UHGV virus genome: UHGV-0861165
DNA: 11,523 nt
Source of the DNA: a virus
Reading direction: 5' to 3' (one strand)
In this document: one piece after another, positions 1 to 11,523 of the stretch
Layout of the letters: each line of letters begins with the position of its first letter
Position numbering within the stretch: position 1 is the stretch's first letter
Notes under the pieces: generated by a model
Databases searched by the model: none
Seen by the model: only the letters and a program-made list of their open reading frames with translations
What the model was told of the DNA's origin: nothing
Position numbers and translations under genes: made by a program

Positions 1-2748
1 ATTGAGCATGGACCAGATGCTGTCCTGACTTTACCCGAGGGTAATGCCAGCGCAGGACTCCCGTCTTCCGTTCGCTACAATGCCGACTCCGACGAATTTG
101 AGGGCTTCTATGAAAATGGTGGATGGTTGCCGCTGGGTGGCGGTGGTATCCGCTGGGAAGTCCTTCCGCATGCCTCTACGGCAACGCTCACTGAAGGGCG
201 AGGCTATCTCATTAATAATACCACAGGGGCATCTACAGTGGTTCTCCCTTCCCCTACGCGTATTGGGGATTCTGTTACTATTTGTGATGCTTATGGGAAA
301 TTTGCCACTTACCCATTGACTGTGTCTCCTTCTGGAAATAATTTGTATGGCTCCACTGAAGACATGGCTATAACAACTGATAACGTATCAGCAACGTTCA
401 CTTGGTCTGGACCTGAACAAGGTTGGGTTATCACATCCGGTGTCGGTCTTGGCCAAGGTCGTGTCTACAGTCGTGAAATCTTTACAAAAATTTTGGCGTC
501 TGAAACAAGTGCTGTCGCTCTCAATACTCCACCAACAATCGTGGACGTGTATGCTGACGGAAAACGTCTTGCGGAATCCAAATATTCACTAGATGGGAAT
601 GTAATCACTTTCAGTCCTTCTTTGCCAGCCAACACAGAACTTCAGGTGATTGAATATACTCCTATTCAATTGGGTAATAGCGGTGGTTCTGGTTCTTCTA
701 CGATTACCTGGGTCTATAATGGGGGTTCAGCGATTGGCGGTGAAACCGAAATCACTTTGGACGTCGTTGTTGATGATGTTCCGGCCATTGATATAAACGG
801 AAGTCGCCAGTATAAAAATCTGGGATTCACATTCGATCCATTAACCAGTAAAATCTATCTTGCACAAGAACTGGAACCAGAGGATGAAGTTGTTGTAATT
901 ATCAATGGAACACCAAACATCTATAATCAAATTGATCATACTTTGCGGGAAGTTGCTCGTGCTACTAACGTTAAAGACAGTGAAGTAATTCTTAGTTCTG
1001 ACACTACTCAGTCCCTTAATGGTAAGAAGATTATTTACTCTGTTAGTGAGCAGAAGGCATATAGTTTACCTACTCTACCGTCCAATGTATTTATTGAATC
1101 TGTTGAAAGTGGGAAATTAACATATAGTCCTGGCTCAATTAAGGTAGATCTACTCCCATTACCTAATGACTCTGCTGTAACTGAGCAAGCAATTCTCAAC
1201 CAGTTGTCTGCAATTGAAGGTGAATCCCTTATTGGAACAGTTACCTATGTAACCCTGCGAGAGTACACAGGCTCAGCTACACGTGTTAAGTGTATCGGTA
1301 GAAGTGTAGAGGGGGATGGTGGTGAGGGGGACTTCTATTTAGTACCTGGTGATTCTACTTCAGTAGATGATGATGGGGTAATTATTGTTGATGGTTCCGG
1401 CCGTCGTTGGAAACGTTCCTATTCTGGCCCAATTTCTGCCTCTTGGTTCGGTGTAAGAGATGGTACTGACGTCACCACTACACTACAAAATGCAGTTAGT
1501 CGGGGTGGTGGACAAATCTTTGTACAGGACGGTCAGTACACACTTACTGCTCCCATCGTTGCAAATTTTACTGGTGCATCTTTCCCAATTATGGGAAGAA
1601 AAAGTAAGCGTTTTGATTTCATTGGTTCATCCATGGCGAACACCACTTTTAATACTAATGGTAATGAAGCGTTTAGTTTTACCGGTACTGATGGTTCTGT
1701 AGCTGGTCAGGGTGTACATAGTGGTGCACGTATTAGTGACTTCAGCGTCTATGGCACAAATAATACAGGCATTGGTGTACGTTTGGTTGGTGCTGCATAC
1801 CTCAAAGTACATGACCTCCAAATTAAACGTACTAATATCGCTATGCGTATTTCTGGTGTACTCTCAAGTGATATAAAACGAATCAATGCTCAATATAACA
1901 ACCATGGTATGTACATCACCAGTGCTTCTAACAGTACAGTCAATGCTATGCGTATTAGTGGGATGTTTGGTGCTAATAGTAAATGGGGAATTGAAGGTGA
2001 AGTAGGTACTAACGTATACATTGAAGATTCTAATTTTGAGGGTAATGGTACAGATGGGGATGAACTGTCTGGTGCTATTTACTTACGAGTTGTAGAACCT
2101 TTGAGCACCATTAACATTAGTGGGTACTTTGAGGCTAACGTTGGGCGAGCAGATATACTGATAGATAACCGAACCAGCTCTCCTTTGGTTGTAAACCTCC
2201 GTGGTTGCGTATTTAATCGTGGTGGTATGCGTGGTGGGTCTAATCTTGGTATTGGTGCAAAGTATAATGTTGAGACACGCTCTACTGGCGGTGGTCCAAT
2301 CATCCTTAATCTTAATGGTTGTGTATTCTTTACACAGACGGGTTTTGGATATGTACCTAGTGCAGATTCTCCATATATACAACCAGCACCATACTTAACT
2401 GTTAATGGGGAAGATACTTGTTACTTTAGTGAATCTACTAGTCGTGGTGAGACTGGGAACCGTGGTATGACATTAGGTATTTCTATGAAAGCTGATGGAA
2501 CCATGGCCAATAAACCACCTTTCTTAACCTCAACTCGTGTTTCTGCTGGTGTATACACCATCACACACAATACTAGATTCGGGACGGATATTGATCATTT
2601 CCAGGCAGTGGCTACGTCTAAGGCCAGTGGTTTTACTGTATCTTATGTGCAGAAGGTTAACTTACAGGCATTACGCATCGTTACATTAAATGCAGCAGGT
2701 TCGCCTGCTGATACTGATTTTGATGTTATAGTCACTTCTCGTCGTTAA
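1..2748 (+). CDS. Tail spike protein, long form, 5'-partial: N-terminal tandem small beta-domains (gp10-like by recollection), internal docking motif, then right-handed parallel beta-helix depolymerase-type domain
   Basis: Frame 1 has no stop from position 1 to TAA at 2746-2748. The ORF-track start at 127 is a TTG inside this open frame, so the gene begins upstream of the window. The translation shows periodic beta-helix-like repeats rich in G/N/S/T (e.g. GIGVRLVGAAYLKVHDLQIKRTNIAMRISG, NVYIEDSNFEGNG). It is paralogous to ORF3 in the docking motif (REVARATNVKDSEVIL...QKAYSLPTLP) and the pre-helix neck motif. Confidence 0.85.
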   Translation: MEHGPDAVLTLPEGNASAGLPSSVRYNADSDEFEGFYENGGWLPLGGGGIRWEVLPHASTATLTEGRGYLINNTTGASTVVLPSPTRIGDSVTICDAYGKFATYPLTVSPSGNNLYGSTEDMAITTDNVSATFTWSGPEQGWVITSGVGLGQGRVYSREIFTKILASETSAVALNTPPTIVDVYADGKRLAESKYSLDGNVITFSPSLPANTELQVIEYTPIQLGNSGGSGSSTITWVYNGGSAIGGETEITLDVVVDDVPAIDINGSRQYKNLGFTFDPLTSKIYLAQELEPEDEVVVIINGTPNIYNQIDHTLREVARATNVKDSEVILSSDTTQSLNGKKIIYSVSEQKAYSLPTLPSNVFIESVESGKLTYSPGSIKVDLLPLPNDSAVTEQAILNQLSAIEGESLIGTVTYVTLREYTGSATRVKCIGRSVEGDGGEGDFYLVPGDSTSVDDDGVIIVDGSGRRWKRSYSGPISASWFGVRDGTDVTTTLQNAVSRGGGQIFVQDGQYTLTAPIVANFTGASFPIMGRKSKRFDFIGSSMANTTFNTNGNEAFSFTGTDGSVAGQGVHSGARISDFSVYGTNNTGIGVRLVGAAYLKVHDLQIKRTNIAMRISGVLSSDIKRINAQYNNHGMYITSASNSTVNAMRISGMFGANSKWGIEGEVGTNVYIEDSNFEGNGTDGDELSGAIYLRVVEPLSTINISGYFEANVGRADILIDNRTSSPLVVNLRGCVFNRGGMRGGSNLGIGAKYNVETRSTGGGPIILNLNGCVFFTQTGFGYVPSADSPYIQPAPYLTVNGEDTCYFSESTSRGETGNRGMTLGISMKADGTMANKPPFLTSTRVSAGVYTITHNTRFGTDIDHFQAVATSKASGFTVSYVQKVNLQALRIVTLNAAGSPADTDFDVIVTSRR

Positions 2749-2754
2749 CTGATA

Positions 2755-2775
2755 CCCCTCCTCGGAGGGGGTTTC
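2755..2775 (+). terminator. Terminator-like GC hairpin (CCCCTC / GAGGGG stem, short loop) followed by TTTCT
   Basis: Perfect inverted repeat CCCCTC(2755-2760)...GAGGGG(2765-2770) with a T-rich 3' flank, 7 nt after the ORF1 stop. The T-tract is short, so it may be a partial terminator or an RNA-stability element. Confidence 0.55.
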
Positions 2776-2880
2776 TAGAAAAACAATGAGGTACATATGA
2801 ACGGATTATTCTTACAAGGTGGTAAAGGTTCAACCGGGATCTTAACCAATAAACAAGCAATAGCTCGGCATTTCGGTGTC
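2776..2880 (+). repeat. Junction cassette copy A: CTAGAAAAACAA-GAGGT-ATATGAACG plus conserved 5' coding segment of the short tail spike
   Basis: By eye, near-identical at nucleotide level to 8103-8209 (TAGAAAAACAAtGAGGTacATATGAACGgatTaTTCTtACAAGGTGGTAAAGG... versus TAGAAAAACAAaGAGGTttATATGAACGaaaTgTTCTcACAAGGTGGTAAAGG...). Includes the RBS (GAGG) and the ATG at 2797. Confidence 0.7.
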
Positions 2881-5301
2881 AAAGAAGACGAAGTCGTTTA
2901 TTTCACTGTCGGTATTGATCTCAGTGGATTTAAAGTAATTTATGATGAGTCTACCCAACGGGCTTATTCTCTTCCTTCAGGTATTGTTTCAGGAACGACT
3001 GCGATAAGCCTTAATTCTGCTGGGGTATTAGTCCATTCTGCTGGTAATGTGGATTTAGGTGCACTAGCTGTTACCCGGGAAGAGTATGTAACTTTACCTG
3101 GTTCATTCGAGACGGGTGTAACCGTTAATGCCAAGAATGAGTTAGTTGTCTTTGCGAATGGCAAGTATCGTTGGGATGGGGCATTGCCTAAAGTGGTTGA
3201 TGCAGCCTCATCCCCCGAAACCAGTGGTGGTATTGCTTCAGGTGCTTGGGTAGGTGTGGTTTCTGCTCTCCTAACAACAGCCAGCGGTACTGGGCTTGTA
3301 GGTCACAAAGGTGCTAACTTTAGTGACACCACTGCCTACCTTTACCTATCCTGGCGTAATGGTGATATTACTGCATTCGGGGGTGTGTACGATGACGCCT
3401 CAGCTGGTGATCTAAATAAAGCAGCCTTTGCTACTATGCAGGATACTTTTGGGGGTGTACGTATAAACCTCATGGGTAAAGCAGTTTACCTACCAAACTC
3501 TATGGAGTTAGAGGTAGGGAGTCTGGAAATCTGGGGTGGTGGTAATATTTTCGGTGGTTCTGGATACATGTTCCGTGCTGGTGACAACGGATTCGTTAAC
3601 ATTAAGGAATTTACCCTACAAAGTATTGATGCAAGTGGTAACGACTTCACTCGCCTTGTTGGTGCACCCTCTAATCGTGTTAACCTCATCCAGTATGTTG
3701 AAGCAGCATATTTCAAAACGATTGGAAGAGTCATCGTATTCGCTGGCAATGGTCGCGCCGGTGGAGACTTTAATCCAGTAGAGACAAGTTACGGCTGTAA
3801 GCAGATTAACTTCCATCACTTTTCATGCGAAGAGCCAGGAGACTATCTCGTTTCTGCCCAGAACTATCCGTTTGATACCTTCAGTGTCACTAAGTTTTAT
3901 GTACATAATATGAAGGGTACGCTCATCAATGCTGGAATTGATAACGATCATGTCTATGAGCGTCAGCTAAACCACGCAATGAAAACCCTCATCGTTTCCG
4001 ACTACACCGTCATGAACGAAGATGATTTCTGGGCTGATGGCGTCTTTACCTATACTACGGTAGCTATCGCTGAAGTTGAGCACCTAGTTCACACCAACGG
4101 TCGCCAACATGGTGTTAAAGTCAAAGAGGCTGGTAATGTAGTCTACGACATCTACAATAATGCATTTAGCGTCCAAGAAGAAAATATCTTTATCAGTGAC
4201 TGTTTCAACTGGAACGACGGGATGCTCATGCCTCACAAGATTAAAGGGGCGTGGAGCTATTCGAGTAAGAATAAGCACTGGGTGTACCGTAAGAGTTATG
4301 TGGTGGCAATGAAAGCTATTCACAGTGGTATTTCAGAAGGAAACGCCAAAGGTTCTTTCTTCTATCCCGAAACGGATGACCTGCACACTAGTGCTGCTTC
4401 TTCTGTCACTGATTGGACGCAACGACAAATCACGATCACTGACTGTTTCATTGAACTGATTAAAGTTAATCAGGCTAACCTTTCACGTCCATTGTTCAAT
4501 GTGCGTTTGGATGGCAACACCTTTGTTACACACGATTCTGGTACTACCCATTTGGTTCAGTTCTCTGCCTATCCCCATAACCTCTATCAGCAGATGACGG
4601 TAACAAATAACCGTATCATAGCTCCGGCTCTTACGTTATCTGCATTGGTAGGCTTCTCCGCAGGTTCTCAGGCTGGTGGAGGAGTATTCCAGGGGGTTGT
4701 CGATATTTCGAACAATACCGTTCGGGCAGCAGCGGCGAATTTGCTGGCAGATTGGTCTGGTGGTCAGAATATCGGAACTGGGTCAGTCATCCGTATCGAC
4801 AATAACGATATGGTTACCACAGGCAACTGCCAGATCTGTAACTCTAATCCGTCCTATGTTGACTCTGTATTTGCTAGAAACAACTATTTGCAGGGCACTG
4901 CGACTGTAGGGATGGGTAAGCTGAACGCATCTGCCTACGCATATGAGACTGTGAATGGGTTTAAGGGGAACAGTCCGATTGTTCTGTTCCAGCAGGGAAT
5001 CCCAACAGCGCAGCAGATTAATAGTCGCTCGTATCGCCTGGAGATTTCTGGAACTAATGGTGAGAAAGTAACCCAAGGTTTCACTATCACTGCTGGCGTC
5101 AGCACGACTTCAATACGCTTCGTGAGTTCCGATGGGAACACGTACACGAAGGTAACTGGAACCGATAATGGCACCTTCGAAATGCAATCCACTTCATCGG
5201 ATGGGTTAAATTTAGAGGTCGTGGTTGCATCTGATGGTGTAACAGTCAGAACAGCGTCGTCTGTGATGCAAAGGTTTGAAGCTCGACTGTATGCTCTGTA
5301 A
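2797..5301 (+). CDS. Tail spike protein, short form (834 aa): N-terminal anchor module shared with ORF4, divergent central and C-terminal receptor-binding/enzymatic region
   Basis: ATG at 2797 preceded by GAGG with a 5-nt spacer; uninterrupted 2505-nt ORF. The first ~155 aa (MNGLFLQGGKGSTGILTNKQAIARHFGVKEDEVVYF...KVIYDESTQRAYSLP...) are clearly homologous to the ORF4 N-terminus. The C-terminus is rich in G/T/S/V beta-strand-like sequence typical of tail spike C-terminal domains. Enzymatic fold not assignable by eye. Confidence 0.85.
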   Translation: MNGLFLQGGKGSTGILTNKQAIARHFGVKEDEVVYFTVGIDLSGFKVIYDESTQRAYSLPSGIVSGTTAISLNSAGVLVHSAGNVDLGALAVTREEYVTLPGSFETGVTVNAKNELVVFANGKYRWDGALPKVVDAASSPETSGGIASGAWVGVVSALLTTASGTGLVGHKGANFSDTTAYLYLSWRNGDITAFGGVYDDASAGDLNKAAFATMQDTFGGVRINLMGKAVYLPNSMELEVGSLEIWGGGNIFGGSGYMFRAGDNGFVNIKEFTLQSIDASGNDFTRLVGAPSNRVNLIQYVEAAYFKTIGRVIVFAGNGRAGGDFNPVETSYGCKQINFHHFSCEEPGDYLVSAQNYPFDTFSVTKFYVHNMKGTLINAGIDNDHVYERQLNHAMKTLIVSDYTVMNEDDFWADGVFTYTTVAIAEVEHLVHTNGRQHGVKVKEAGNVVYDIYNNAFSVQEENIFISDCFNWNDGMLMPHKIKGAWSYSSKNKHWVYRKSYVVAMKAIHSGISEGNAKGSFFYPETDDLHTSAASSVTDWTQRQITITDCFIELIKVNQANLSRPLFNVRLDGNTFVTHDSGTTHLVQFSAYPHNLYQQMTVTNNRIIAPALTLSALVGFSAGSQAGGGVFQGVVDISNNTVRAAAANLLADWSGGQNIGTGSVIRIDNNDMVTTGNCQICNSNPSYVDSVFARNNYLQGTATVGMGKLNASAYAYETVNGFKGNSPIVLFQQGIPTAQQINSRSYRLEISGTNGEKVTQGFTITAGVSTTSIRFVSSDGNTYTKVTGTDNGTFEMQSTSSDGLNLEVVVASDGVTVRTASSVMQRFEARLYAL

Positions 5302-5302
5302 G

Positions 5303-5330
5303 AACAACCCCGCTTCGGCGGGTTCTTGTT
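5303..5330 (+). terminator. Terminator-like hairpin with CCCGC-TTCG-GCGGG core (UUCG-type tetraloop) and T-rich 3' flank
   Basis: CCCGC(5309-5313) TTCG GCGGG(5318-5322), flanked by partially complementary AACAA/TTGTT arms, followed by TTCTTGTT. Lies immediately after the ORF2 stop (5299-5301). Confidence 0.45.
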
Positions 5331-5360
5331 ATACCTTTGTTCATAAATTTATTAGTTCAG

Positions 5361-5368
5361 ACTAAATA
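5361..5368 (+). promoter_or_regulatory. ACTAAATA motif, candidate phage late-promoter-like element (T4 late consensus TATAAATA, 6/8 match)
   Basis: The same octamer recurs at 10350-10357 upstream of ORF5, followed in both cases by a similar leader (ATGGRG-ATC-(2-3 nt)-AAATG). The spacing to the downstream start is 34-36 nt if ORF3 starts at 5405. Confidence 0.3.
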
Positions 5369-5404
5369 CCCCATATTGGCAAATCCTCTATGGGGTATCT
5401 TCAA

Positions 5405-8068
5405 ATGACCAGAAACGTCGAGAGCATCTTTGGAGCGGTCGTAACAGCTCCGCACCAGATTCCATACACTTACACAGCAACGGGCGGAGAGAAGTTTATC
5501 TCCCTCCCTTTCTACCCTGTCACTGGTATAGTCACAATCAACGGTGGTATGCAAGTTCCGTTAGACAACTTTGAAATCGATGGAAATACGTTGAATCTCG
5601 GGTGTGCATTATCCAAAGGTGACGTTGTGTTCTGTCTGTTTGATAAGATTCTGTCTCCAGAAGATTATAAAACTGGGATTCGAATCTATAAGTTTCAGGC
5701 TATAGGAGGTGAAACCGAGTTCACTCCTGATTACACATCCTATGGAGTCCAATCTCTTTATATCGGTGGTGAGTACAAAACACCCGAAATTGAATATTCC
5801 TATGACAGCACGACAGGGAAAGTGACTTTACAAACTGCGCTGACTGCAGGCGTTTGGGTAGTCGCTGAAATGTCTGTTAAACAACCGAATATCAGTCCGT
5901 TGTTTGACCGAAGTATTCAAGAAATCGCCCGTTCAGCTAATGTAAAAGATTCTGAGGTAATTCTTAATACGGATACATCTCAAGTACTCAATAACAAGAA
6001 AGTTATCTTCGATGCAGCTGCTCAGAAAATTTATGGCCTGCCTTCATTACCGACCAATGTCTATATTAGTTCTGTGTCTAATGGTCAGTTAACCTACAGT
6101 CCAGGTAACATTACCGTAGATTTGATGGAAGTTCCTAATTCTGGTGCTAGTCTCAGAGAAGACCTGAGTAAGCCTGATGGTAGCAAGCTCATTGGTTCAT
6201 GCCCCAATATTGCAGTACTGCGAACAATTGAGCCTACCTATGCTGAACAACGCATTTACGTAGAAGCACATACTGAAGGTATGATTGCAACCAATGCAGG
6301 TGATTTAGGTGGCGGGTATTTTGTATATAAACCATCTGTTACATCAGCAGATGACAATGGTATGACTATTGTTACTGCATCCGGCAAGCGTTGGGTACGT
6401 GATTTACGTGGTAGCACCGAAGTTACCCCATCTATGTTTGGTGCGTGGATGGATGCTCCTTATATTGATGGGAGCACTATTCAGGGTACACCTTATCCTA
6501 AAGCACCAAGTATGGGGGCTGCTGACCTGTCTGGTGTGCACAATGATGGGGATGCTTTGCTGGCAACCTACACATATGCTGTAGCTAATGGGTTGAATAT
6601 CAAAATTACTCAACCGATGTACATTGGTGATACACAGATTGATATTAGCAATCAGCGTTGGACTGGTAGATCTCTATCCATTACGGGTCTTGGTCAGAGA
6701 CAAAGTATTATTTATACATCAGGTAAGGGTGGATTCATCTCTACCAGATGGGGACACAATATTACCGTTGGTCGCCTCTCTTTCCGTAATGCTGATTCTG
6801 ATTACGTAGGTAGTCCTCTTGTTATCAGTTCATTCGACTTAAGTAATGGCATCGGTGGTGGTGGTAAAACATTCAATATTCACGATGTGGACTTTTACCA
6901 CTATAAGTTCGCTTTGCCTATGGCTTGCTTTGTCAGTGTTATGACCAATTTGTATGCATATGACTGTACCTATGGTTTTGGTATCAATGGAAGCACTAGT
7001 ACGGATATGTCATCTATTTGGGCACACCATTGTGACATTGGCTTTTTATGGGGAGCTGCCATTAATCGTACTACATACGAGCCAGCCAATAATGAAACAC
7101 CTGTTATGTATGTTGCTACCAGCAACATTGCAGCAGATGGTTGCATTTTACCTCATAAATTTTATGGAGATATTCGTAGCCTTTCCTTCTCTGGCTTTGG
7201 TATTGAAGGGATAAATGGTCCAGTGGCATTAGACTTCTCACAGTTAGCCTCCCCTGCTGCACAAACAACAATCGTATTCAGAGATGTTTCTTGTTGGATT
7301 CAGTCTAAAATGAATACTGGTGTAACTCATTTTATTGAGTTGCCTGCTAATGAGTACCAGGCTGGTAGGATTATTTTTGACAGTGGTTACGTTAACTCTG
7401 ACTATGCTATCAAATTGATGGAGAATACCACTTCTCCAAGTAACCAGTATATTGGGCGTAGTGTTACATTAAATAGTAATTTTGAATTTTTAAAAGTTAG
7501 CGATGGTTCCTACACAATATCTACATATAACCGTGGTAACCTTTACCGGGGCAGGGTATATGGAGAAGATATTGTACAAGGTCGTAACTCGTACACGGGT
7601 ACTACTTTGTCAGCAATCCATTCTAATAGTAATTCCTTCTTCAGAAGTGTTGACCATAAGGAAGCTACTGTACTGGTTCCATGGAACAGGGCTTTAGATA
7701 TATTCCTTTGTGCTGTAGGGGAAGAGACTAAAATTCCGGATGGTTGCTTCGTTGCTGGGCGTGCAGATATCATTCCAGTTAACAAAAATGGTTTGGCTGG
7801 TACTGAATCAGGGGGCAGTATTCTGTTTGGGCTATCCGGTAGCACACAGGAAAATGTAGCCTCTGGTGCAGTCTGGTCTAATATGATTGCTGGTGATAAA
7901 TCTCTTTCCGGGGTAACAGTAACTAAACTGGTACGTGATGGTAAAACATTTGTTAGAATCGCATTGCCTACGGCAAGCCTAACAAATGCAATCGTTCACC
8001 TTTCTGTAACCTACTGTGGTTTTGCACATTACTACGATAAGCGTTGGGAAATAAAACCCTTAAGCTAA
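5405..8068 (+). CDS. Tail spike protein, long form (887 aa from ATG 5405; 892 aa if the in-frame ATG at 5390 is used): N-terminal tandem small beta-domains, docking motif, neck motif, beta-helix depolymerase-type domain
   Basis: Uninterrupted frame to TAA 8066-8068. Start ambiguity: the ATG at 5390 has no SD and sits in the 3' arm of an inverted repeat, whereas the ATG at 5405 has a leader that parallels the ORF5 leader. The protein is paralogous to ORF1 in the docking motif (QEIARSANVKDSEVIL...QKIYGLPSLP) and the neck motif (GGGYFVYKPSVTSADDNGMTIVTASGKRWVRD). Confidence 0.85.
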   Translation: MTRNVESIFGAVVTAPHQIPYTYTATGGEKFISLPFYPVTGIVTINGGMQVPLDNFEIDGNTLNLGCALSKGDVVFCLFDKILSPEDYKTGIRIYKFQAIGGETEFTPDYTSYGVQSLYIGGEYKTPEIEYSYDSTTGKVTLQTALTAGVWVVAEMSVKQPNISPLFDRSIQEIARSANVKDSEVILNTDTSQVLNNKKVIFDAAAQKIYGLPSLPTNVYISSVSNGQLTYSPGNITVDLMEVPNSGASLREDLSKPDGSKLIGSCPNIAVLRTIEPTYAEQRIYVEAHTEGMIATNAGDLGGGYFVYKPSVTSADDNGMTIVTASGKRWVRDLRGSTEVTPSMFGAWMDAPYIDGSTIQGTPYPKAPSMGAADLSGVHNDGDALLATYTYAVANGLNIKITQPMYIGDTQIDISNQRWTGRSLSITGLGQRQSIIYTSGKGGFISTRWGHNITVGRLSFRNADSDYVGSPLVISSFDLSNGIGGGGKTFNIHDVDFYHYKFALPMACFVSVMTNLYAYDCTYGFGINGSTSTDMSSIWAHHCDIGFLWGAAINRTTYEPANNETPVMYVATSNIAADGCILPHKFYGDIRSLSFSGFGIEGINGPVALDFSQLASPAAQTTIVFRDVSCWIQSKMNTGVTHFIELPANEYQAGRIIFDSGYVNSDYAIKLMENTTSPSNQYIGRSVTLNSNFEFLKVSDGSYTISTYNRGNLYRGRVYGEDIVQGRNSYTGTTLSAIHSNSNSFFRSVDHKEATVLVPWNRALDIFLCAVGEETKIPDGCFVAGRADIIPVNKNGLAGTESGGSILFGLSGSTQENVASGAVWSNMIAGDKSLSGVTVTKLVRDGKTFVRIALPTASLTNAIVHLSVTYCGFAHYYDKRWEIKPLS

Positions 8069-8078
8069 TTAACTACCC

Positions 8079-8102
8079 CCACCCCCTTTATGGGGGTGGT
8101 TT
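8079..8102 (+). terminator. Terminator-like hairpin CCACCCCC-TTTAT-GGGGGTGG followed by TTT
   Basis: Perfect 8-bp inverted repeat (8079-8086 / 8092-8099) with a 5-nt loop and a TTT 3' tail, 10 nt after the ORF3 stop. Confidence 0.6.
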
Positions 8103-8209
8103 ACTAGAAAAACAAAGAGGTTTATATGAACGAAATGTTCTCACAAGGTGGTAAAGGCTCCACTGGTATTCTTACCAATAAGCAAGCCATTGCCCGTAAG
8201 TTTGGTGTT
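8103..8209 (+). repeat. Junction cassette copy B (see 2776-2880)
   Basis: Nucleotide-level similarity to copy A spans the leader, RBS, ATG (8126) and the first ~80 nt of coding sequence. Confidence 0.7.
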
Positions 8210-10297
8210 AAGCAATCTGAGGTTGTTTATGCCAAATCAGGACAGTCCTTGTCTGGTTATAAAGTAATCTACGATAAGGTCACTCAGCGCTCCTATGCAC
8301 TGCCTTCTAACCTGCCTGCTGGCGCTACCATCACCAGCCTGACAGACGGCATTCTCGTACACAATACGGGCACCGTAGACCTGGGTGCTCTGGCTGTACT
8401 GCGCGGGGAGTTCGTTACTCTGGTCGAAAACTTTACGTCTGGATTTACGATTCGTGTCAAAAACGAAGTTGTAAGTGATGGGGTAAATTTGTATCGCTGG
8501 GGTGGTAGTTTACCAAAGACCGTTAATTCTGGTGAAACTTTAGAAAGCACTGGGGGTATGAATACGAATGCGTGGATTGGCGTTGTATCGCTTAATAACT
8601 CATTTTTGAGTGTAAATGCTCTAAGGGCGTCAGAAAACTTAAATAAAAATATACCATTGTTTCTTTCAAGTTATTATGAAGGTATTGATGGCGGCGGCGG
8701 GTCTTTCTACGTAGATACCAACGACACTACGTCATCAGATAACAATGGTACAGTATTTGTTAACGCCTCTGGCCAGCGCATAAAACGTATTTCAGATGGT
8801 GTATGTCGTTGGTCAGACTTCGGAATTCTTCCAGGCATGCCGGTAGCGCCTACAAAATCGCAGTGTGAAGCCGTTTGGTCGTGGGGGTTTGCAAATGGGT
8901 GTACTCGTTATGAAACCTTCCAGAAAGGGGAGATGACGTTCACCTTCCCCCTGTTGTTCCAAGTTCCGGCTAACTGGACAGGTGGTGCTGTTAGCTTCAT
9001 TGCAGAAGGGTTGCATAAATTTGCTTATGATTTCAAAAATGGCGCTACAGATGATGTGATTGAGATCCTCCTTAAACTGGAAGATCTGTCAGGTAATACA
9101 CCCATCCATACTGTTTATAATTTTGATAACGTTGGGATGGGACGGTTCCCCGGGAAAAACATCCGATATACCGCACTGCGACACACGAGCGCAAAAAACT
9201 CAATGATCAAGGTTACTGGGAAGAACAACTACGGATATGCCTTGTTCATAGGCGGTAGTGATAACAGCATCGTGTACAATTCAACGTTTTATAACTGCGA
9301 TGGCCAGTTGCTTGTAAATTCTCCAGCAGGCGGTTACGACAGCTTTGGTGATGCAATTTATGTTGGCGCTAAAAATGTGTCTATCCAGAGTCCTGTAATT
9401 GAAACAACACAGGGTGGTAGAGCCGGTATCGTATTTGAAGGGACATGGGTTGAACGTGTTGGTGGTGAGGTAACAAACTGCTTTATTAAGGGATATGACC
9501 GTGGTATTCACATAGAGACTGTAGGTTTCAGGATGGATGCAATTAATATTACTGGAGGCAGGATACAAGATTGCAATACCAGCGTATTGGCATTCAATGG
9601 TGTAACTGATGATATGGGTAGTGATATGTCTGTTATCATCAAGGGGTTAACGTCAAGGCTTGATAGCACAATTTCAGGCCACGCCAATCCGTCTGGTTTT
9701 AGCCTGGGACACCTTATGGTATCTGGAGTTAACACACAAGTAACAACGGAAGGGTGCTCATGGCAGACTCACCAGAACAACATCACCGTTGTGGGTAATG
9801 GGAAATGGGTGAGCAATGGTGACCGCATGTTTGTTAACTCTGGTGGCATCAACCTGCCGTACACTCGTGGGTGCGAGATAAACAATCTGTACGCACCACA
9901 GAACAGAAACGCGTTAAAATCCGCAGGTAATTTAGTCTTTACAAACTCTTATTGGGGAGGGGACATTAACATAACCGGGGGCAATAAAACAATTATTGAT
10001 AACGTCGAGATGTCAAGACAAGGAGGATATGCAAACTGTGGTCGTATCAGTCTGGTTGGCTCCAATAGTGCGATATTGCGTAATATTATATTCCAGTATC
10101 CAGACTCATGGGCAATAGATAATACTCAAACTTGGCAGGTCCCCGTGTGTCCTATCATAGAAAACATCCACGTAAATAGCGTAGAAACAGGAACTGCAAC
10201 ATTACAAAGAAACGCAGAAAGTGGGGCTAATAATCGGTACAGAAGGTCTATTCCTTCATATATATCAAACGGAAGTACATGGACGATAATTAGTTAA
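8126..10297 (+). CDS. Tail spike protein, short form (723 aa): shared N-terminal anchor module, neck motif, right-handed beta-helix (pectate-lyase-like) depolymerase-type domain
   Basis: ATG at 8126 preceded by GAGG (8117-8120); uninterrupted 2172-nt ORF. The N-terminal ~150 aa are homologous to ORF2. Typical beta-helix repeats are visible (GGSDNSIVYNSTFYNCDGQLLVNS, AIYVGAKNVSIQSPVIETTQGGRAGIVFEG, TNCFIKGYDRGIHIET). Confidence 0.88.
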   Translation: MNEMFSQGGKGSTGILTNKQAIARKFGVKQSEVVYAKSGQSLSGYKVIYDKVTQRSYALPSNLPAGATITSLTDGILVHNTGTVDLGALAVLRGEFVTLVENFTSGFTIRVKNEVVSDGVNLYRWGGSLPKTVNSGETLESTGGMNTNAWIGVVSLNNSFLSVNALRASENLNKNIPLFLSSYYEGIDGGGGSFYVDTNDTTSSDNNGTVFVNASGQRIKRISDGVCRWSDFGILPGMPVAPTKSQCEAVWSWGFANGCTRYETFQKGEMTFTFPLLFQVPANWTGGAVSFIAEGLHKFAYDFKNGATDDVIEILLKLEDLSGNTPIHTVYNFDNVGMGRFPGKNIRYTALRHTSAKNSMIKVTGKNNYGYALFIGGSDNSIVYNSTFYNCDGQLLVNSPAGGYDSFGDAIYVGAKNVSIQSPVIETTQGGRAGIVFEGTWVERVGGEVTNCFIKGYDRGIHIETVGFRMDAINITGGRIQDCNTSVLAFNGVTDDMGSDMSVIIKGLTSRLDSTISGHANPSGFSLGHLMVSGVNTQVTTEGCSWQTHQNNITVVGNGKWVSNGDRMFVNSGGINLPYTRGCEINNLYAPQNRNALKSAGNLVFTNSYWGGDINITGGNKTIIDNVEMSRQGGYANCGRISLVGSNSAILRNIIFQYPDSWAIDNTQTWQVPVCPIIENIHVNSVETGTATLQRNAESGANNRYRRSIPSYISNGSTWTIIS

Positions 10298-10302
10298 CAA
10301 AG

Positions 10303-10330
10303 CCCCTCTTCGGAGGGGTTTCTTCTTTCT
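10303..10330 (+). terminator. Rho-independent-type terminator: CCCCTC-TTCG-GAGGGG hairpin followed by TTTCTTCTTTCT
   Basis: Perfect 6-bp GC stem with a TTCG tetraloop and a pyrimidine/T-rich tail, 5 nt after the ORF4 stop. The stem sequence is nearly the same as the hairpin at 2755-2775. Confidence 0.65.
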
Positions 10331-10339
10331 ATTCCTCGG

Positions 10340-10367
10340 TTGGTTGTATACTAAATATCTCTATAAT
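10340..10367 (+). promoter_or_regulatory. Candidate promoter upstream of ORF5: TTGGTT (weak -35) - 16 nt - TATAAT (consensus -10); overlaps the ACTAAATA motif at 10350-10357
   Basis: A perfect TATAAT hexamer at 10362-10367 lies ~24 nt upstream of ATG 10392, with RBS GGAG at 10381-10384. The -35 is poor (3/6). The alternative reading is a phage late-type promoter centred on ACTAAATA. Confidence 0.3.
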
Positions 10368-10391
10368 GGCACCTATCGATGGAGCATCAAA

Positions 10392-11523
10392 ATGCAAGAA
10401 ATGAACCTCAACCGCCGCCCATATTGGGATGACTGGAATCCAGAGAAGCGTTTTTCGCGCATCCTATTCCGTCCGGCACCTATCAAAGTTCAGACGCGTG
10501 AACTGAACCAGATGCAGACCATCTTCCAGGATCAACTGGAGAAACTTGGCAACCATCTGTTCAAAGACGGTTCAATGGTTATCCCCGGCGGCCTGACGAT
10601 CACCAACACTGCTGTGTCCATGAAGTTCACTCTGGCTGGTGGTAGTGAGTTCACTGATCTGGAAGGTATCTCCGAACTCTATGTTCTGGGCAAGGACAAC
10701 AATGCGAAAGCACGCGTCCTGTCCTTGGAACGTTACCCAGCTGAGCCGGATACAATGTATGCCATCTTAGAGATGACTGAGAGTGGTAGTTCAGACGGTT
10801 TCGAAGCTGGCGACAATCTATACTTCAACACCTATGACGTGAACGATAACTTCATCCGTGTCGGCTATGGCGTGGCCGATACTGTTGGCGGTTCGATTGT
10901 CGCTCGCATGACAAAGGGTGTTTATTTCGTTCGTGGTATGTTCCTGGATGTTGAACCAACCACTTTGATCGTAGACAACGCATCGAACTCTACATCTCAC
11001 CGCATTGGCTTCAAAGTTACAGAAACAATCGTGACCGAAGCAGAAGATGAAAGTCTGTTCTCCAATGCTCAGGGTACTCCGAACTCTAAAGCCCCTGGTG
11101 CGCATCGCCTGCGCGTCGACCTCGTGTTGTCTCGCTACGGTTATGATGAAGAAGTGGCCGACTTCGTTGAACTGGCGAAGGTGAAAGACGGTCGCATTCA
11201 GTCCATGGTCACCCAGTCAACGTACAACATCCTCGAAGACGCCATGGCTCAGCGTACCTATGAGACCAATGGTGACTACAACGTCTCTACTCACCAGATC
11301 GACCTGCGTGAACATCTGAAAGAGAACAACAACGGCGGCGTTTACACTCCGGCTGAAGGTGGTGATGAAAGCAAATTCGTGGCGGTTATGAAGCCAGGCA
11401 TTTCCTACGTTCGTGGTCGTCGTATCGAAAACCTCGGCGAAGAGCTGGTCATAATTGACAAAGCCCGTGACACTGATATCCTGAACAACAACCCTGTGGC
11501 TGTTTCGACTGGCAACTATCTGG
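10392..11523 (+). CDS. Conserved phage structural protein of unknown function (possibly baseplate- or tail-associated), 3'-partial
   Basis: ATG at 10392 with a good RBS (GGAG, 7-nt spacer); the frame is open to the window end, so it is absent from the ORF track. It looks visibly GC-richer, with more host-like codon choice, than the spike genes, and it lacks beta-helix repeats and the spike N-terminal modules. The function is inferred only from its position next to the spike cluster. Confidence 0.75.
   Translation, partial: MQEMNLNRRPYWDDWNPEKRFSRILFRPAPIKVQTRELNQMQTIFQDQLEKLGNHLFKDGSMVIPGGLTITNTAVSMKFTLAGGSEFTDLEGISELYVLGKDNNAKARVLSLERYPAEPDTMYAILEMTESGSSDGFEAGDNLYFNTYDVNDNFIRVGYGVADTVGGSIVARMTKGVYFVRGMFLDVEPTTLIVDNASNSTSHRIGFKVTETIVTEAEDESLFSNAQGTPNSKAPGAHRLRVDLVLSRYGYDEEVADFVELAKVKDGRIQSMVTQSTYNILEDAMAQRTYETNGDYNVSTHQIDLREHLKENNNGGVYTPAEGGDESKFVAVMKPGISYVRGRRIENLGEELVIIDKARDTDILNNNPVAVSTGNYL

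What the first reader, a model, noticed from the sequence alone, without database searches (positions are those of the whole stretch)
1..10297. Array of four consecutive tail spike genes in alternating long/short architecture
Four same-strand genes of 723 to over 900 aa all carry beta-helix-type repeats and shared attachment modules. In the long forms (ORF1, ORF3) the N-terminus is a string of small beta-domains; in the short forms (ORF2, ORF4) it is a common ~155-aa anchor. This matches what I recall of the Ackermannviridae branched receptor-binding complex, where two long spikes (TSP2/TSP4) carry gp10-like docking domains and two short spikes (TSP1/TSP3) attach to them. Four different C-terminal domains imply recognition or degradation of up to four different surface polysaccharides. 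The host is probably an enterobacterium, judged only from GAGG-type ribosome-binding sites and codon usage.
Basis: partly seen in the sequence, partly recalled or inferred. Interest (0 to 1): 0.6.

Follow-up and report, generated by a model that had tools for sequence, protein, structure and literature searches.

The report
Agtrevirus four-tailspike gene cluster
This is the standard cluster of four tailspike genes (TSP4, TSP3, TSP2, TSP1) of an Agtrevirus-type Ackermannviridae phage; the system is well known, and only this phage's set of sugar-recognising domains and two recombination joints are new.

Summary
The window holds four same-strand genes followed by the start of VrlC/VriC. That is the CBA120 order, TSP4-TSP3-TSP2-TSP1-VrlC.

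- **ORF1 (945 aa in full; the window lacks its first 30 codons):** it carries the TSP4 baseplate anchor and XD1-XD3 domains, 80% identical to CBA120 TSP4.
- **ORF3:** it carries the TSP2 XD2-XD3-D1 region.
- **ORF2 and ORF4:** both carry the D1-D2 head of TSP1/TSP3 (Pfam PF18668).
- **Backbone:** the conserved flanks are 96-98% identical to Agtrevirus phages and 75-89% to Kuttervirus.
- **C-terminal bodies:** the four share no detectable sequence similarity to one another beyond a short neck/D3' module. All are beta-helix type, by structure prediction for ORF1 and ORF2 and by PF27114 hits for ORF1, ORF3 and ORF4.
- **Novelty of the bodies:** no deposited phage has the ORF1 body above 31% or the ORF2 body above 43% identity. 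ORF3's is 97% shared with phages fGh-Ecl02 and YX22. ORF4's is 85-90% shared with Salmonella phage SJ2 and E. coli prophage tailspikes.

ORF1 has a TSP2-type head without D2. ORF2 has a TSP1-type leader and first 25 residues fused to a TSP3-type head. Together they suggest that a cassette from a TSP2|TSP1-type junction was moved into the TSP4|TSP3 junction.

Verdict: a new member of a known kind, of low to moderate interest.

The parts
1..2748 (+). ORF1 = TSP4 orthologue, cut at the 5' end (the window begins at codon 31 of 945). Approximate layout in nt: 1-930 rest of the anchor domain plus XD1-XD2-XD3; 949-1230 TSP2-type D1 head, with no D2; 1185-1210 neck helix; 1237-1449 D3'-like small domain; 1513-2340 beta-helix; 2395-2739 C-terminal beta domain.
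   Evidence: PDB 7REJ/7RFO TSP4-N, E=2.7e-183. It is 80% identical to CBA120 TSP4 and 87% to YX22 TSP4 over residues 1-424. The full length comes from L004. It has no PF18668, unlike CBA120 and YX22 TSP4. Its D1 is 49-61% identical to TSP2 D1s and 34-35% to TSP4 D1s. Model m2604498821d6 and its Foldseek matches. PF27114 hit.
2755..2771 (+). GC-rich hairpin (CCCCTC-CTCG-GAGGGG) followed by TTTCT, directly after the ORF1 stop. The 48-nt ORF1-ORF2 spacer with its GAGG ribosome-binding site is of the TSP1-leader type.
   Evidence: Sequence. Window 2764-2901 is 76% identical to 8092-8230, the ORF4 leader and start. It also matches the TSP2-TSP1 junctions of CBA120, AV101, SJ2 and CECAV_050.
2797..5301 (+). 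ORF2 = the short spike at the TSP3 position, 834 aa. Residues 1-25 are TSP1-type. Residues 26 to about 160 are a TSP3-type D1-D2 head. Residues from about 176 to 834 are a beta-helix body of a rare family plus a C-terminal beta domain.
5309..5322 (+). Terminator-like hairpin (CCCGC-TTCG-GCGGG plus a T-rich tail) after ORF2.
5362..5368 (+). CTAAATA motif in the 88-nt ORF2-ORF3 spacer. It may be a T4-type late promoter. The same extended motif recurs before VrlC.
   Evidence: The 7-mer count alone is not significant (4 found, 1.9 expected). The promoter reading rests on my recollection of the Vi01/CBA120 genome papers and was not tested.
5405..8068 (+). ORF3 = TSP2 orthologue, 887 aa from ATG 5405 (an in-frame ATG at 5390 would give 892 aa). 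It has XD2-XD3-D1, a neck, D3' and a beta-helix body.
   Evidence: PDB 6W4Q residues 1-342, E=2.4e-142. It is 97-98% identical over its full length to TSP2 of YX22 and fGh-Ecl02, and 66% to CBA120 TSP2 over 1-341. PF27114 hit on the product. No PF18668.
8079..8099 (+). GC-rich hairpin (CCACCCCC-TTTAT-GGGGGTGG) after ORF3, followed by a TSP1-type leader with a GAGG ribosome-binding site.
   Evidence: Sequence.
8126..10297 (+). ORF4 = TSP1 orthologue, 723 aa. It has a TSP1-type D1-D2 head (residues 1 to about 155), a D3'-like module and a beta-helix body.
   Evidence: PF18668 at residues 97-153. PDB 4OJ5, 9D84 and 4QNL heads. The first 20 residues are 99% identical to 8 TSP1 references. PF18668 and PF27114 hit the product itself. 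The body is 85% identical to SJ2 TSP1, 83% to Enterobacter phage Tyrion and 90% to E. coli prophage tailspike WP_063122163.
10300..10321 (+). Terminator-like hairpin after ORF4.
10351..10357 (+). Second CTAAATA motif, upstream of VrlC.
10392..11523 (+). 5' part of the VrlC/VriC-like virion gene (about 1612 aa in relatives). It marks the downstream edge of the tsp cluster.
   Evidence: Translation. phrog_358, E=2e-143. It is 98% nt identical to Agtrevirus phages. Annotations of relatives.

Best explanation
The window is the tailspike (tsp) gene cluster of a virulent Agtrevirus-type Ackermannviridae myophage, transcribed in the order TSP4, TSP3, TSP2, TSP1 and followed by VrlC.

By homology with the CBA120 paradigm, the assembly would be as follows. 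The ORF1 trimer (TSP4) anchors to the baseplate through its N-terminal triple beta-helix anchor domain. Its T4-gp10-like XD2 domain binds the XD2 of ORF3 (TSP2). The D1-D2 heads of the two short spikes dock on the XD3 domains: TSP1 on TSP4 and TSP3 on TSP2. The result is a branched, four-spike complex at each baseplate corner.

Each spike ends in a different trimeric right-handed beta-helix body. Each body binds, and most likely cleaves or modifies, one specific O-antigen or capsular polysaccharide of an enterobacterial host (E. coli, Enterobacter, Citrobacter or Salmonella type). The phage could therefore address up to four glycan types.

The cluster is a recombination mosaic. The conserved assembly modules are Agtrevirus backbone. 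The bodies were imported and have relatives in prophage P22-like tailspikes, T7-like fibres and other phages. One imported cassette appears to span a TSP2-type head and body, the intergenic leader and the first 25 codons of a TSP1-type gene.

Shown here: gene layout, domain homology, predicted folds and mosaic boundaries. Inferred: physical assembly, enzymatic activity, glycan specificity and the single-cassette history.
For: - **Layout and synteny.** The genes run baseplate wedge, a 396-aa protein, four tsp genes, then VrlC. fGh-Ecl02, YX22, SJ2, CECAV_050, AV101 and CBA120 have the same layout; A221 and PC3 are syntenic but carry only three tsp genes.
- **Assembly modules.** ORF1 matches 7REJ at E=2.7e-183. 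ORF3 matches 6W4Q at E=2.4e-142. ORF2 and ORF4 match the TSP1/TSP3 heads and PF18668.
- **Published assembly rules.** These come from PMC8825819 and PMC11414711.
- **Backbone.** Nt 1-977 and 10298-11523 are 96-98% identical to Agtrevirus phages and 75-89% to Kuttervirus.
- **Modular exchange.** The same bodies occur behind P22 head-binding (PF09008), T7-fibre (PF03906) and Tail_spike_N adaptors in E. coli, Enterobacter, Hafnia and Citrobacter genomes and in metagenomes.
- **Cassette.** The evidence is.
- **Literature precedent.** This pattern is already described for Agtrevirus (PMC10791037).
Against: - No experiment is available here: no complex, no enzymatic activity and no host.
- The beta-helix fold of ORF3 and ORF4 rests on precomputed Pfam PF27114 hits only.
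- The ORF2 body has no characterised relative, so hydrolase, lyase, esterase or a purely binding role cannot be told apart.
- ORF2's TSP1-type N-terminal tip and ORF1's TSP2-type head depart from the CBA120 template, so the docking scheme may not transfer one-to-one.
- The single-cassette history could equally be two separate recombination events.
Confidence: 0.93

Rival explanations
1. The branched complex is wired differently from CBA120 in this phage. ORF2 carries a TSP1-type N-terminal tip, so it may compete with ORF4 for the XD3 of TSP4, or dock on either XD3. Occupancy could then be mixed, or TSP2-XD3 could stay empty.
For: - ORF2 residues 1-20 are 86% identical to TSP1 references and 53% to TSP3 references. 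Residues 41-60 are 99% TSP3-type.
- Among the 8 TSP1 and 6 TSP3 references, the first 20 or so residues are nearly invariant and class-specific.
- Chao et al. ascribe TSP1 docking to the charged N-terminus of D1.
- No deposited phage has this hybrid head above 81% identity over 72 aa.
Against: - The rest of ORF2's D1-D2 is TSP3-type.
- ORF3 (TSP2) is 98% identical to YX22 TSP2, which pairs with a canonical TSP3.
- Related contigs in other samples carry 90%-cluster relatives of ORF2, so the arrangement seems viable.
- fGh-Ecl02 has a still more aberrant TSP3 head alongside the same TSP2, so tolerance seems broad.
- Which residues set docking specificity is not known.
Confidence: 0.15
2. One or more of the four proteins is a non-enzymatic adhesin (a tail fibre that only binds) or a glycan-modifying esterase, rather than a depolymerase.
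For: - The beta-helix fold alone does not prove glycosidase activity.
- G7C gp63.1, which shares the head module (4QNL), is an O-antigen deacetylase according to PMC11414711.
- No catalytic residues could be assigned.
Against: - All four characterised CBA120 spikes and all four AV101 spikes degrade or recognise O-antigens.
- ORF1's family is related to the Sf11, Sf101 and Sf6-like O-antigen tailspikes.
Confidence: 0.2
3. The cluster belongs to another multi-spike phage group (G7C-like podovirus, Alcyoneusvirus or Vequintavirinae) or to a prophage, not to an Ackermannviridae phage.
For: The head module and gp10-like domains also occur in G7C-like phages, in phage B2 and in Klebsiella jumbo phages.
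Against: - The flanks are 96-98% nt identical to Agtrevirus genomes.
- The upstream baseplate wedge genes and the downstream VrlC are syntenic.
- A 90%-cluster relative of ORF1 lies on a 154.6-kb contig, the size of an Ackermannviridae genome.
Confidence: 0.01

Closest known systems
Kuttervirus CBA120 TSP1-4 branched receptor-binding complex (orf210-213; PDB 4OJ5, 6W4Q, 6NW9, 5W6H, 7REJ)
   Same: The gene order, strand logic and flanks are the same. ORF1 has the same TSP4 anchor and XD1-3 (80% aa identity over 1-424). ORF3 has the same TSP2 XD2-XD3-D1 (66% over 1-341). ORF2 and ORF4 have the same D1-D2 heads. All four have beta-helix bodies.
   Different: All four receptor-binding bodies are unrelated to those of CBA120. 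ORF1 lacks the D2 domain that CBA120 TSP4 has and carries a TSP2-type D1. ORF2's first 25 residues are TSP1-type. The backbone is only 75-89% nt identical.
Agtrevirus phages (AV101, YX22, A221, PC3/PH4, vB_CECAV_050) and Enterobacter phage fGh-Ecl02
   Same: The backbone is 96-98% nt identical. TSP2 is 97-98% identical to those of YX22 and fGh-Ecl02. The published pattern also fits: Agtrevirus TSP bodies are mostly unique to each phage and resemble prophage tailspikes (PMC10791037).
   Different: No deposited phage covers 80% or more of the window. The TSP4 and TSP3 bodies are absent from the 50,697 phage records, with best matches of 31% and 43%. The hybrid TSP3 head is not found there either.
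P22-like, Sf6-like and Sf11-type prophage and phage tailspikes of E. coli, Enterobacter, Hafnia and Shigella
   Same: They carry homologous beta-helix bodies. The ORF4 body is 90% identical to E. coli WP_063122163. The ORF1 body is 50-67% identical to E. coli and E. hormaechei prophage spikes and about 27-30% to Sf101 and Sf11 gp13. The ORF2 body is about 43% identical to E. hormaechei and E. coli spikes and to Kapi1.
   Different: Those proteins use other N-terminal adaptors: the P22 head-binding domain PF09008, the T7 fibre N-terminus PF03906, or the Sf11 helical adaptor. They act as single spikes, not as part of a branched complex.
Phage T4 gp10 and G7C gp66/gp63.1
   Same: According to PMC8825819, the XD1-3 domains of TSP4 share the gp10 fold and its role as docking platforms. 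The G7C gp63.1 head (4QNL) matches the heads of ORF2 and ORF4.
   Different: gp10 is a baseplate protein without a receptor-binding body. G7C has two spikes, not four. No direct sequence match of the window ORFs to T4 gp10 was sought or seen.

Membership tests
Ackermannviridae branched TSP cluster (CBA120 paradigm) | Two to four consecutive same-strand tsp genes between the baseplate-wedge genes and the VrlC/VriC gene, in the order TSP4-TSP3-TSP2-TSP1 | tested here: met
   upstream genes on L004; VrlC. Compared with the annotated loci.
Ackermannviridae branched TSP cluster (CBA120 paradigm) | TSP4 with an N-terminal anchor domain plus XD1-XD2-XD3 | tested here: met
   ORF1 residues 1-308 (window frame) match 7REJ residues 31-338, E=2.7e-183. 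It is 80% identical to CBA120 TSP4 over 1-424.
Ackermannviridae branched TSP cluster (CBA120 paradigm) | TSP2 with XD2-XD3 and a D1 head without D2 | tested here: met
   ORF3 residues 6-353 match 6W4Q residues 1-342. No PF18668.
Ackermannviridae branched TSP cluster (CBA120 paradigm) | TSP1 and TSP3 begin directly with a D1-D2 head (Pfam PF18668 Tail_spike_N) | tested here: met
   PF18668 in ORF2 (E=8.7e-21) and ORF4 (E=1.4e-12). Matches to 4OJ5 and 6NW9. Caveat: ORF2's first 25 residues are TSP1-type.
Ackermannviridae branched TSP cluster (CBA120 paradigm) | TSP4 head made of D1 plus D2 | tested here: not met
   PF18668 is present in CBA120 and YX22 TSP4 and absent from full-length ORF1. ORF1's D1 is TSP2-type. 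fGh-Ecl02 TSP4 also lacks PF18668, so this feature varies within the group.
Ackermannviridae branched TSP cluster (CBA120 paradigm) | Each spike ends in a trimeric right-handed beta-helix receptor-binding or depolymerase body | tested here: met
   ORF1 model. ORF2 model. For ORF3 and ORF4 the evidence is only the precomputed PF27114 Phage_tail_beta hits. Trimerisation was not tested.
Ackermannviridae branched TSP cluster (CBA120 paradigm) | Physical assembly into a branched complex, and glycan-degrading activity | not testable with these tools
   This needs virion EM or proteomics, ultracentrifugation, and halo or oligosaccharide assays.
Genus Agtrevirus (Aglimvirinae) | High nucleotide identity of the backbone to Agtrevirus genomes, above that to Kuttervirus | tested here: met
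   Nt 1-977 and 10298-11523 are 96-98% identical to YX22, A221, CECAV_050, AV101 and PC3, and 75-89% to CBA120 and SJ2. Whole-genome identity is not testable from an 11.5-kb window.
T4 gp10-like XD domains | Fold identity of XD1-3 with T4 gp10 domains | not tested
   Taken from PMC8825819 for CBA120 TSP4-N, to which ORF1 is 80% identical. No direct comparison with gp10 was made here.
P22-like tailspike (head-binding domain PF09008) | N-terminal P22 head-binding domain | tested here: not met
   No PF09008 in any window ORF. It occurs only in prophage homologues of the bodies.

The most novel reading that the evidence does not exclude
This phage may be a natural rewiring experiment on the branched complex. 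A single cassette would have moved from a TSP2|TSP1-type junction into the TSP4|TSP3 junction. The cassette would comprise a TSP2-type D1, neck, D3' and body, the 48-nt leader, and the first 25 codons of a TSP1-type gene. The product is a TSP4 without D2 and a TSP3 with a TSP1-type docking tip.

If the tip sets XD3 choice, both short spikes would target TSP4-XD3, and the stoichiometry or topology of the complex would differ from CBA120. If it does not, the first 25 residues, which are nearly invariant and class-specific among the 14 reference phage spikes compared, must have another role.

Separately, the ORF2 body belongs to a very small beta-helix family with no characterised member. It may target a glycan for which no phage enzyme is yet known.
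Probability: 0.15. Interest if true: 0.5.

Novelty: new member of a known kind. Interest (0 to 1): 0.27.

Why it matters
The Ackermannviridae four-spike complex is a well-studied model for multi-receptor host recognition and a platform for engineering host range. This locus adds one more natural combination to that model.

- Two of its receptor-binding bodies, those of TSP4 and TSP3, are not in any deposited phage genome.
- A third, that of TSP1, is shared at 90% with rare E. coli prophage tailspikes. This illustrates module traffic between prophages and virulent phages.
- Its two unusual joints are the TSP2-type head on TSP4 and the TSP1-type tip on a TSP3 head. They mark natural, presumably viable crossover points that engineers could copy. 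They also give a cheap test of which residues decide where a short spike docks.

None of this changes the picture of how the system works.

Tried and rejected
- **Local Pfam scan:** it gave no family for ORF1 and ORF3. The precomputed PF27114 hits come from a newer Pfam than the local library appears to hold.
- **Sequence and profile searches of PDB for the bodies:**
  - Nothing was found for ORF2 or ORF4 beyond the heads.
  - The ORF1 body hits Sf11 gp13 (9OCC). According to the paper, only residues 4-59 of that chain were modelled, so it is not a solved body structure.
- **Profile comparison of the bodies with each other:** only the neck/D3' module aligns between ORF4 and ORF1, and ORF3 does not align at all. 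The four bodies are therefore not detectably related by sequence.
- **Serotype inference from E. coli genomes:** it failed. The ORF4 body occurs in only 2 of 5,426 complete genomes, and the table carries no serotype.
- **Rfam:** no RNA family.
- **Minus strand:** no ORF over 100 aa and nothing conserved.
- **Sigma-70 promoter scan:** fewer sites than in the shuffles, so uninformative.
- **CTAAATA motif count:** not significant on its own.
Full report
**Observation**

The window holds four large + strand ORFs and nothing comparable on the minus strand.
- ORF1 (1..2748) is open at the 5' end. An identical Logan contig (ERR975170_336, 0 mismatches over 8079 nt) shows the full gene is 945 aa and that the window starts at codon 31. 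The same contig shows baseplate-wedge genes and a 396-aa gene upstream.
- ORF2 is 2797..5301 (834 aa).
- ORF3 is 5390..8068 (892 aa). All orthologues and the crystallised CBA120 TSP2 start at the second ATG, 5405, giving 887 aa.
- ORF4 is 8126..10297 (723 aa).
- From 10392 to the end of the window runs the start of the VrlC/VriC-like virion gene.

**Identity of the four genes**

Searches against solved structures identify the N-terminal modules.
- ORF1 matches CBA120 TSP4-N (7REJ/7RFO) at E=2.7e-183 over residues 31-338.
- ORF3 matches full-length CBA120 TSP2 (6W4Q) over residues 1-342 at E=2.4e-142.
- ORF2 and ORF4 match the D1-D2 heads of TSP1 (4OJ5), TSP3 (6NW9/5W6F), phage B2 Gp48 (9D84) and G7C gp63.1 (4QNL).
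- Pfam finds Tail_spike_N (PF18668) in ORF2 and ORF4 only.

In CBA120 the genes orf213 (TSP4), orf212, orf211, orf210 and orf209 (VrlC) lie on the minus strand, downstream of the gp6 wedge genes. The transcriptional order is thus TSP4, TSP3, TSP2, TSP1, VrlC, as in the window. Hence ORF1 = TSP4, ORF2 = the TSP3 position, ORF3 = TSP2 and ORF4 = TSP1.

The published assembly rules come from Chao et al. 2022 (PMC8825819) and Sørensen et al. 2024 (PMC11414711).
- TSP4 anchors to the baseplate.
- The XD2 domains of TSP4 and TSP2 bind each other.
- TSP1-D1 docks on TSP4-XD3.
- TSP3 docks on TSP2-XD3 once the TSP2:TSP4 complex exists.
- The XD domains have the T4 gp10 fold.

**Which phage**

A megablast of the whole window finds 281 Ackermannviridae records, but none covers 80% or more of it. 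A local blastn against eight fetched loci gives the mosaic map.
- Nt 1-977 (TSP4 anchor and XD1-3) and 10298-11523 (VrlC) are 96-98% identical to Agtrevirus phages YX22, A221, vB_CECAV_050, AV101 and PC3. They are 75-89% identical to Kuttervirus CBA120 and SJ2.
- The window from just upstream of ORF3 through the first codons of ORF4 (5325-8214 in YX22, 5361-8214 in fGh-Ecl02) is 96% identical to YX22 and fGh-Ecl02.
- Everything else matches only in the short head regions, at 70-84%.

The backbone is therefore Agtrevirus-like.

**The receptor-binding bodies**

tblastn of each C-terminal body against 50,697 phage genomes gave the following.
- ORF1: best hit 30.6% (an Aeromonas phage), then Sf101 and Sf11 tailspikes at about 26%.
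- ORF2: best hit 42.5%, Escherichia phage Kapi1.
- ORF3: 97.4% to fGh-Ecl02 (host Enterobacter cloacae) and YX22 (host APEC E. coli), then 52-58% to Kagunavirus-type and other siphophages.
- ORF4: 85% to Salmonella phage SJ2 TSP1, 83% to Enterobacter phage Tyrion and 66% to Citrobacter phage CrRp3.

The 5.8-billion-protein collection adds more.
- The ORF1 body recurs at 93% in metagenomic proteins with T7-fibre and Tail_spike_N adaptors. It recurs at 67% in Enterobacter hormaechei and at 50% in E. coli P22-like prophage tailspikes with PF09008 head-binding domains.
- The ORF2 body has only 14 non-self relatives, all at about 40-44%, in E. hormaechei and E. coli.
- An exhaustive HMMER scan of 1.84 billion representatives finds only 5 clusters at E<1e-30 for the ORF2 body.
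- The ORF4 body is 90% identical to an E. coli prophage tailspike, WP_063122163. It occurs in only 2 of 5,426 complete E. coli genomes.

This is the pattern published for Agtrevirus: bodies unique to each phage that resemble prophage tailspikes (PMC10791037).

**Fold**

- The ORF1 body model has mean pLDDT 78, and residues 100-605 are confident. It gives Foldseek probability 1.0, E of about 1e-10 and TM of 0.4-0.48 to AM24, K2-2, CBA120 TSP2, Sf6 and other tailspikes.
- The ORF1 body also matches the Sf11 gp13 sequence at E=1e-22. Only residues 4-59 of that chain were modelled.
- PF27114 (Phage_tail_beta) is on record for the products of ORF1 and ORF3 and of ORF4.
- The bodies are not detectably related to one another by sequence. 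The exception is a shared neck/D3' module of the form G-x-GG-x-G-x-F-Y...D-x-x-G-x-V-x-V...G-x-R-W/I-K-R.

The claim of four different beta-helix bodies holds. For ORF3 and ORF4 it rests on Pfam hits alone.

**Two recombinant joints**

1. The head of ORF1.
   - Canonical TSP4 proteins (CBA120, YX22) have a D1-D2 head with PF18668 at about residues 415-482. Full-length ORF1 has none.
   - Its D1 (residues 356 to about 450) is 49-61% identical to the D1 of nine TSP2 proteins and only 34-35% to the D1 of six canonical TSP4 proteins.
   - Nucleotide similarity to Agtrevirus TSP4 genes stops at nt 977. Nt 949-1169 instead match TSP2 genes at 76-82%.
2. The start of ORF2.
   - The 48-nt ORF1-ORF2 spacer and the first 35 or so codons of ORF2 are 76% identical to the ORF3-ORF4 spacer and the start of ORF4. 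This is the only internal DNA repeat in the window.
   - The same stretch matches the TSP2-TSP1 junctions of other phages.
   - I aligned ORF2 with 8 TSP1 and 6 TSP3 references, whose first 20 or so residues are nearly invariant and class-specific. ORF2 residues 1-20 are 86% TSP1-like and 53% TSP3-like. Residues 41-60 are 99% TSP3-like and 78% TSP1-like.
   - No deposited phage has this hybrid head above 81% identity over 72 aa.

My inference is a single imported cassette. It would span a TSP2-type D1, neck, D3' and body, the leader, and 25 codons of a TSP1-type gene, with crossovers at the XD3/D1 border of tsp4 and at about codon 25-28 of tsp3. Two separate events would explain the data equally well.

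Whether the TSP1-type tip changes where ORF2 docks cannot be settled here. Chao et al. attribute TSP1 docking to the charged N-terminus of D1. On the other hand, the same TSP2 (98% identical) pairs with a canonical TSP3 in YX22 and with a very aberrant one in fGh-Ecl02.

**Regulatory features seen in passing**

- Each of the four genes is followed within 10 nt by a GC-rich hairpin and a T-rich stretch. Those after ORF2 and ORF4 meet the terminator scan's criteria.
- The short spacers before ORF2 and ORF4 carry GAGG ribosome-binding sites.
- The two longer spacers, before ORF3 and before VrlC, share the motif ACTAAATA-N-C-N-C-N-ATA-N-TGGCA. I recall CTAAATA as the late-promoter core proposed for Vi01-like phages. 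That is memory, not a test, and the 7-mer count alone is not significant.
- Rfam finds nothing.

**Verdict**

It is the tsp cluster of an Agtrevirus-type Ackermannviridae phage, a new member of a well-described kind. The new elements are:
- this phage's combination of bodies, two of which are absent from deposited phages;
- a rare beta-helix family in ORF2;
- the two recombinant joints.

Assembly, enzymatic activity and host glycans remain inferred.

Noticed in passing
window 2797-2880 and 2749-2796; compare 8069-8230: The leader and first 25 codons of the gene at the TSP3 position are TSP1-type, and the rest of its head is TSP3-type. The class-specific N-terminal 20 or so residues are otherwise nearly invariant in the 14 reference spikes. 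No deposited phage has this hybrid.
   Followed up: yes
window 949-1320 (ORF1 residues 356 to about 450 of the full-length protein): This TSP4 has a TSP2-type D1 head and lacks the D2 (PF18668) domain present in CBA120 and YX22 TSP4. fGh-Ecl02 TSP4 also lacks PF18668.
   Followed up: yes
window 2755-2771, 5309-5322, 8079-8099, 10300-10321: Every tsp gene is followed almost at once by a GC-rich hairpin plus a T-rich tail. Three of the four have a 4-nt loop (CTCG, TTCG, TTCG). If these act as terminators, read-through or separate promoters would be needed to express all four genes.
   Followed up: partly
window 5359-5383 and 10348-10372: The two longer spacers share an extended motif, ACTAAATA(C/T)C(C/T)C(A/T)ATA(T/A)TGGCA. 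This fits late promoters ahead of tsp2 and vrlC only, which would pair the genes as tsp4+tsp3 and tsp2+tsp1. The 7-mer count is not significant by itself.
   Followed up: partly
window 5390 vs 5405: ORF3 has two in-frame ATGs 15 nt apart, and neither has a clear Shine-Dalgarno sequence. Orthologues and the 6W4Q construct use the second (MTRNVE...).
   Followed up: partly
L001 (fGh-Ecl02) 5986-8088 and L003 (A221): In fGh-Ecl02 the protein at the TSP3 position lacks the D1 domain altogether (MNPQFNQPKGSTAKEINK...), yet it sits beside a TSP2 that is 97% identical to ORF3. A221 has only three tsp genes. Head requirements in this group seem loose.
   Followed up: no
Proteins P0001, P0003, P0016, P0094: Metagenomic proteins carry the ORF1-type or ORF4-type body behind a T7 tail-fibre N-terminus (PF03906), some of them also with Tail_spike_N. 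The same body therefore circulates among at least four adaptor types: TSP4/XD, Tail_spike_N, P22 head-binding and T7 fibre.
   Followed up: partly
L004 and L011 (Logan run ERR975170); P0086 on a 154,609-nt contig: The window sequence is split over two contigs of one public sequencing run with no organism label. A 90%-cluster relative of ORF1 lies on a genome-sized contig, so a complete genome of this or a sister phage probably exists unannotated in public data.
   Followed up: no
CBA120 record NC_016570, orf213; phrog_34776: TSP4 orthologues are annotated 'haemolysin-type calcium binding' in RefSeq and PHROGs, and TSP2 is annotated 'maturation protein' in some records. These are misleading legacy names for tailspikes.
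   Followed up: no
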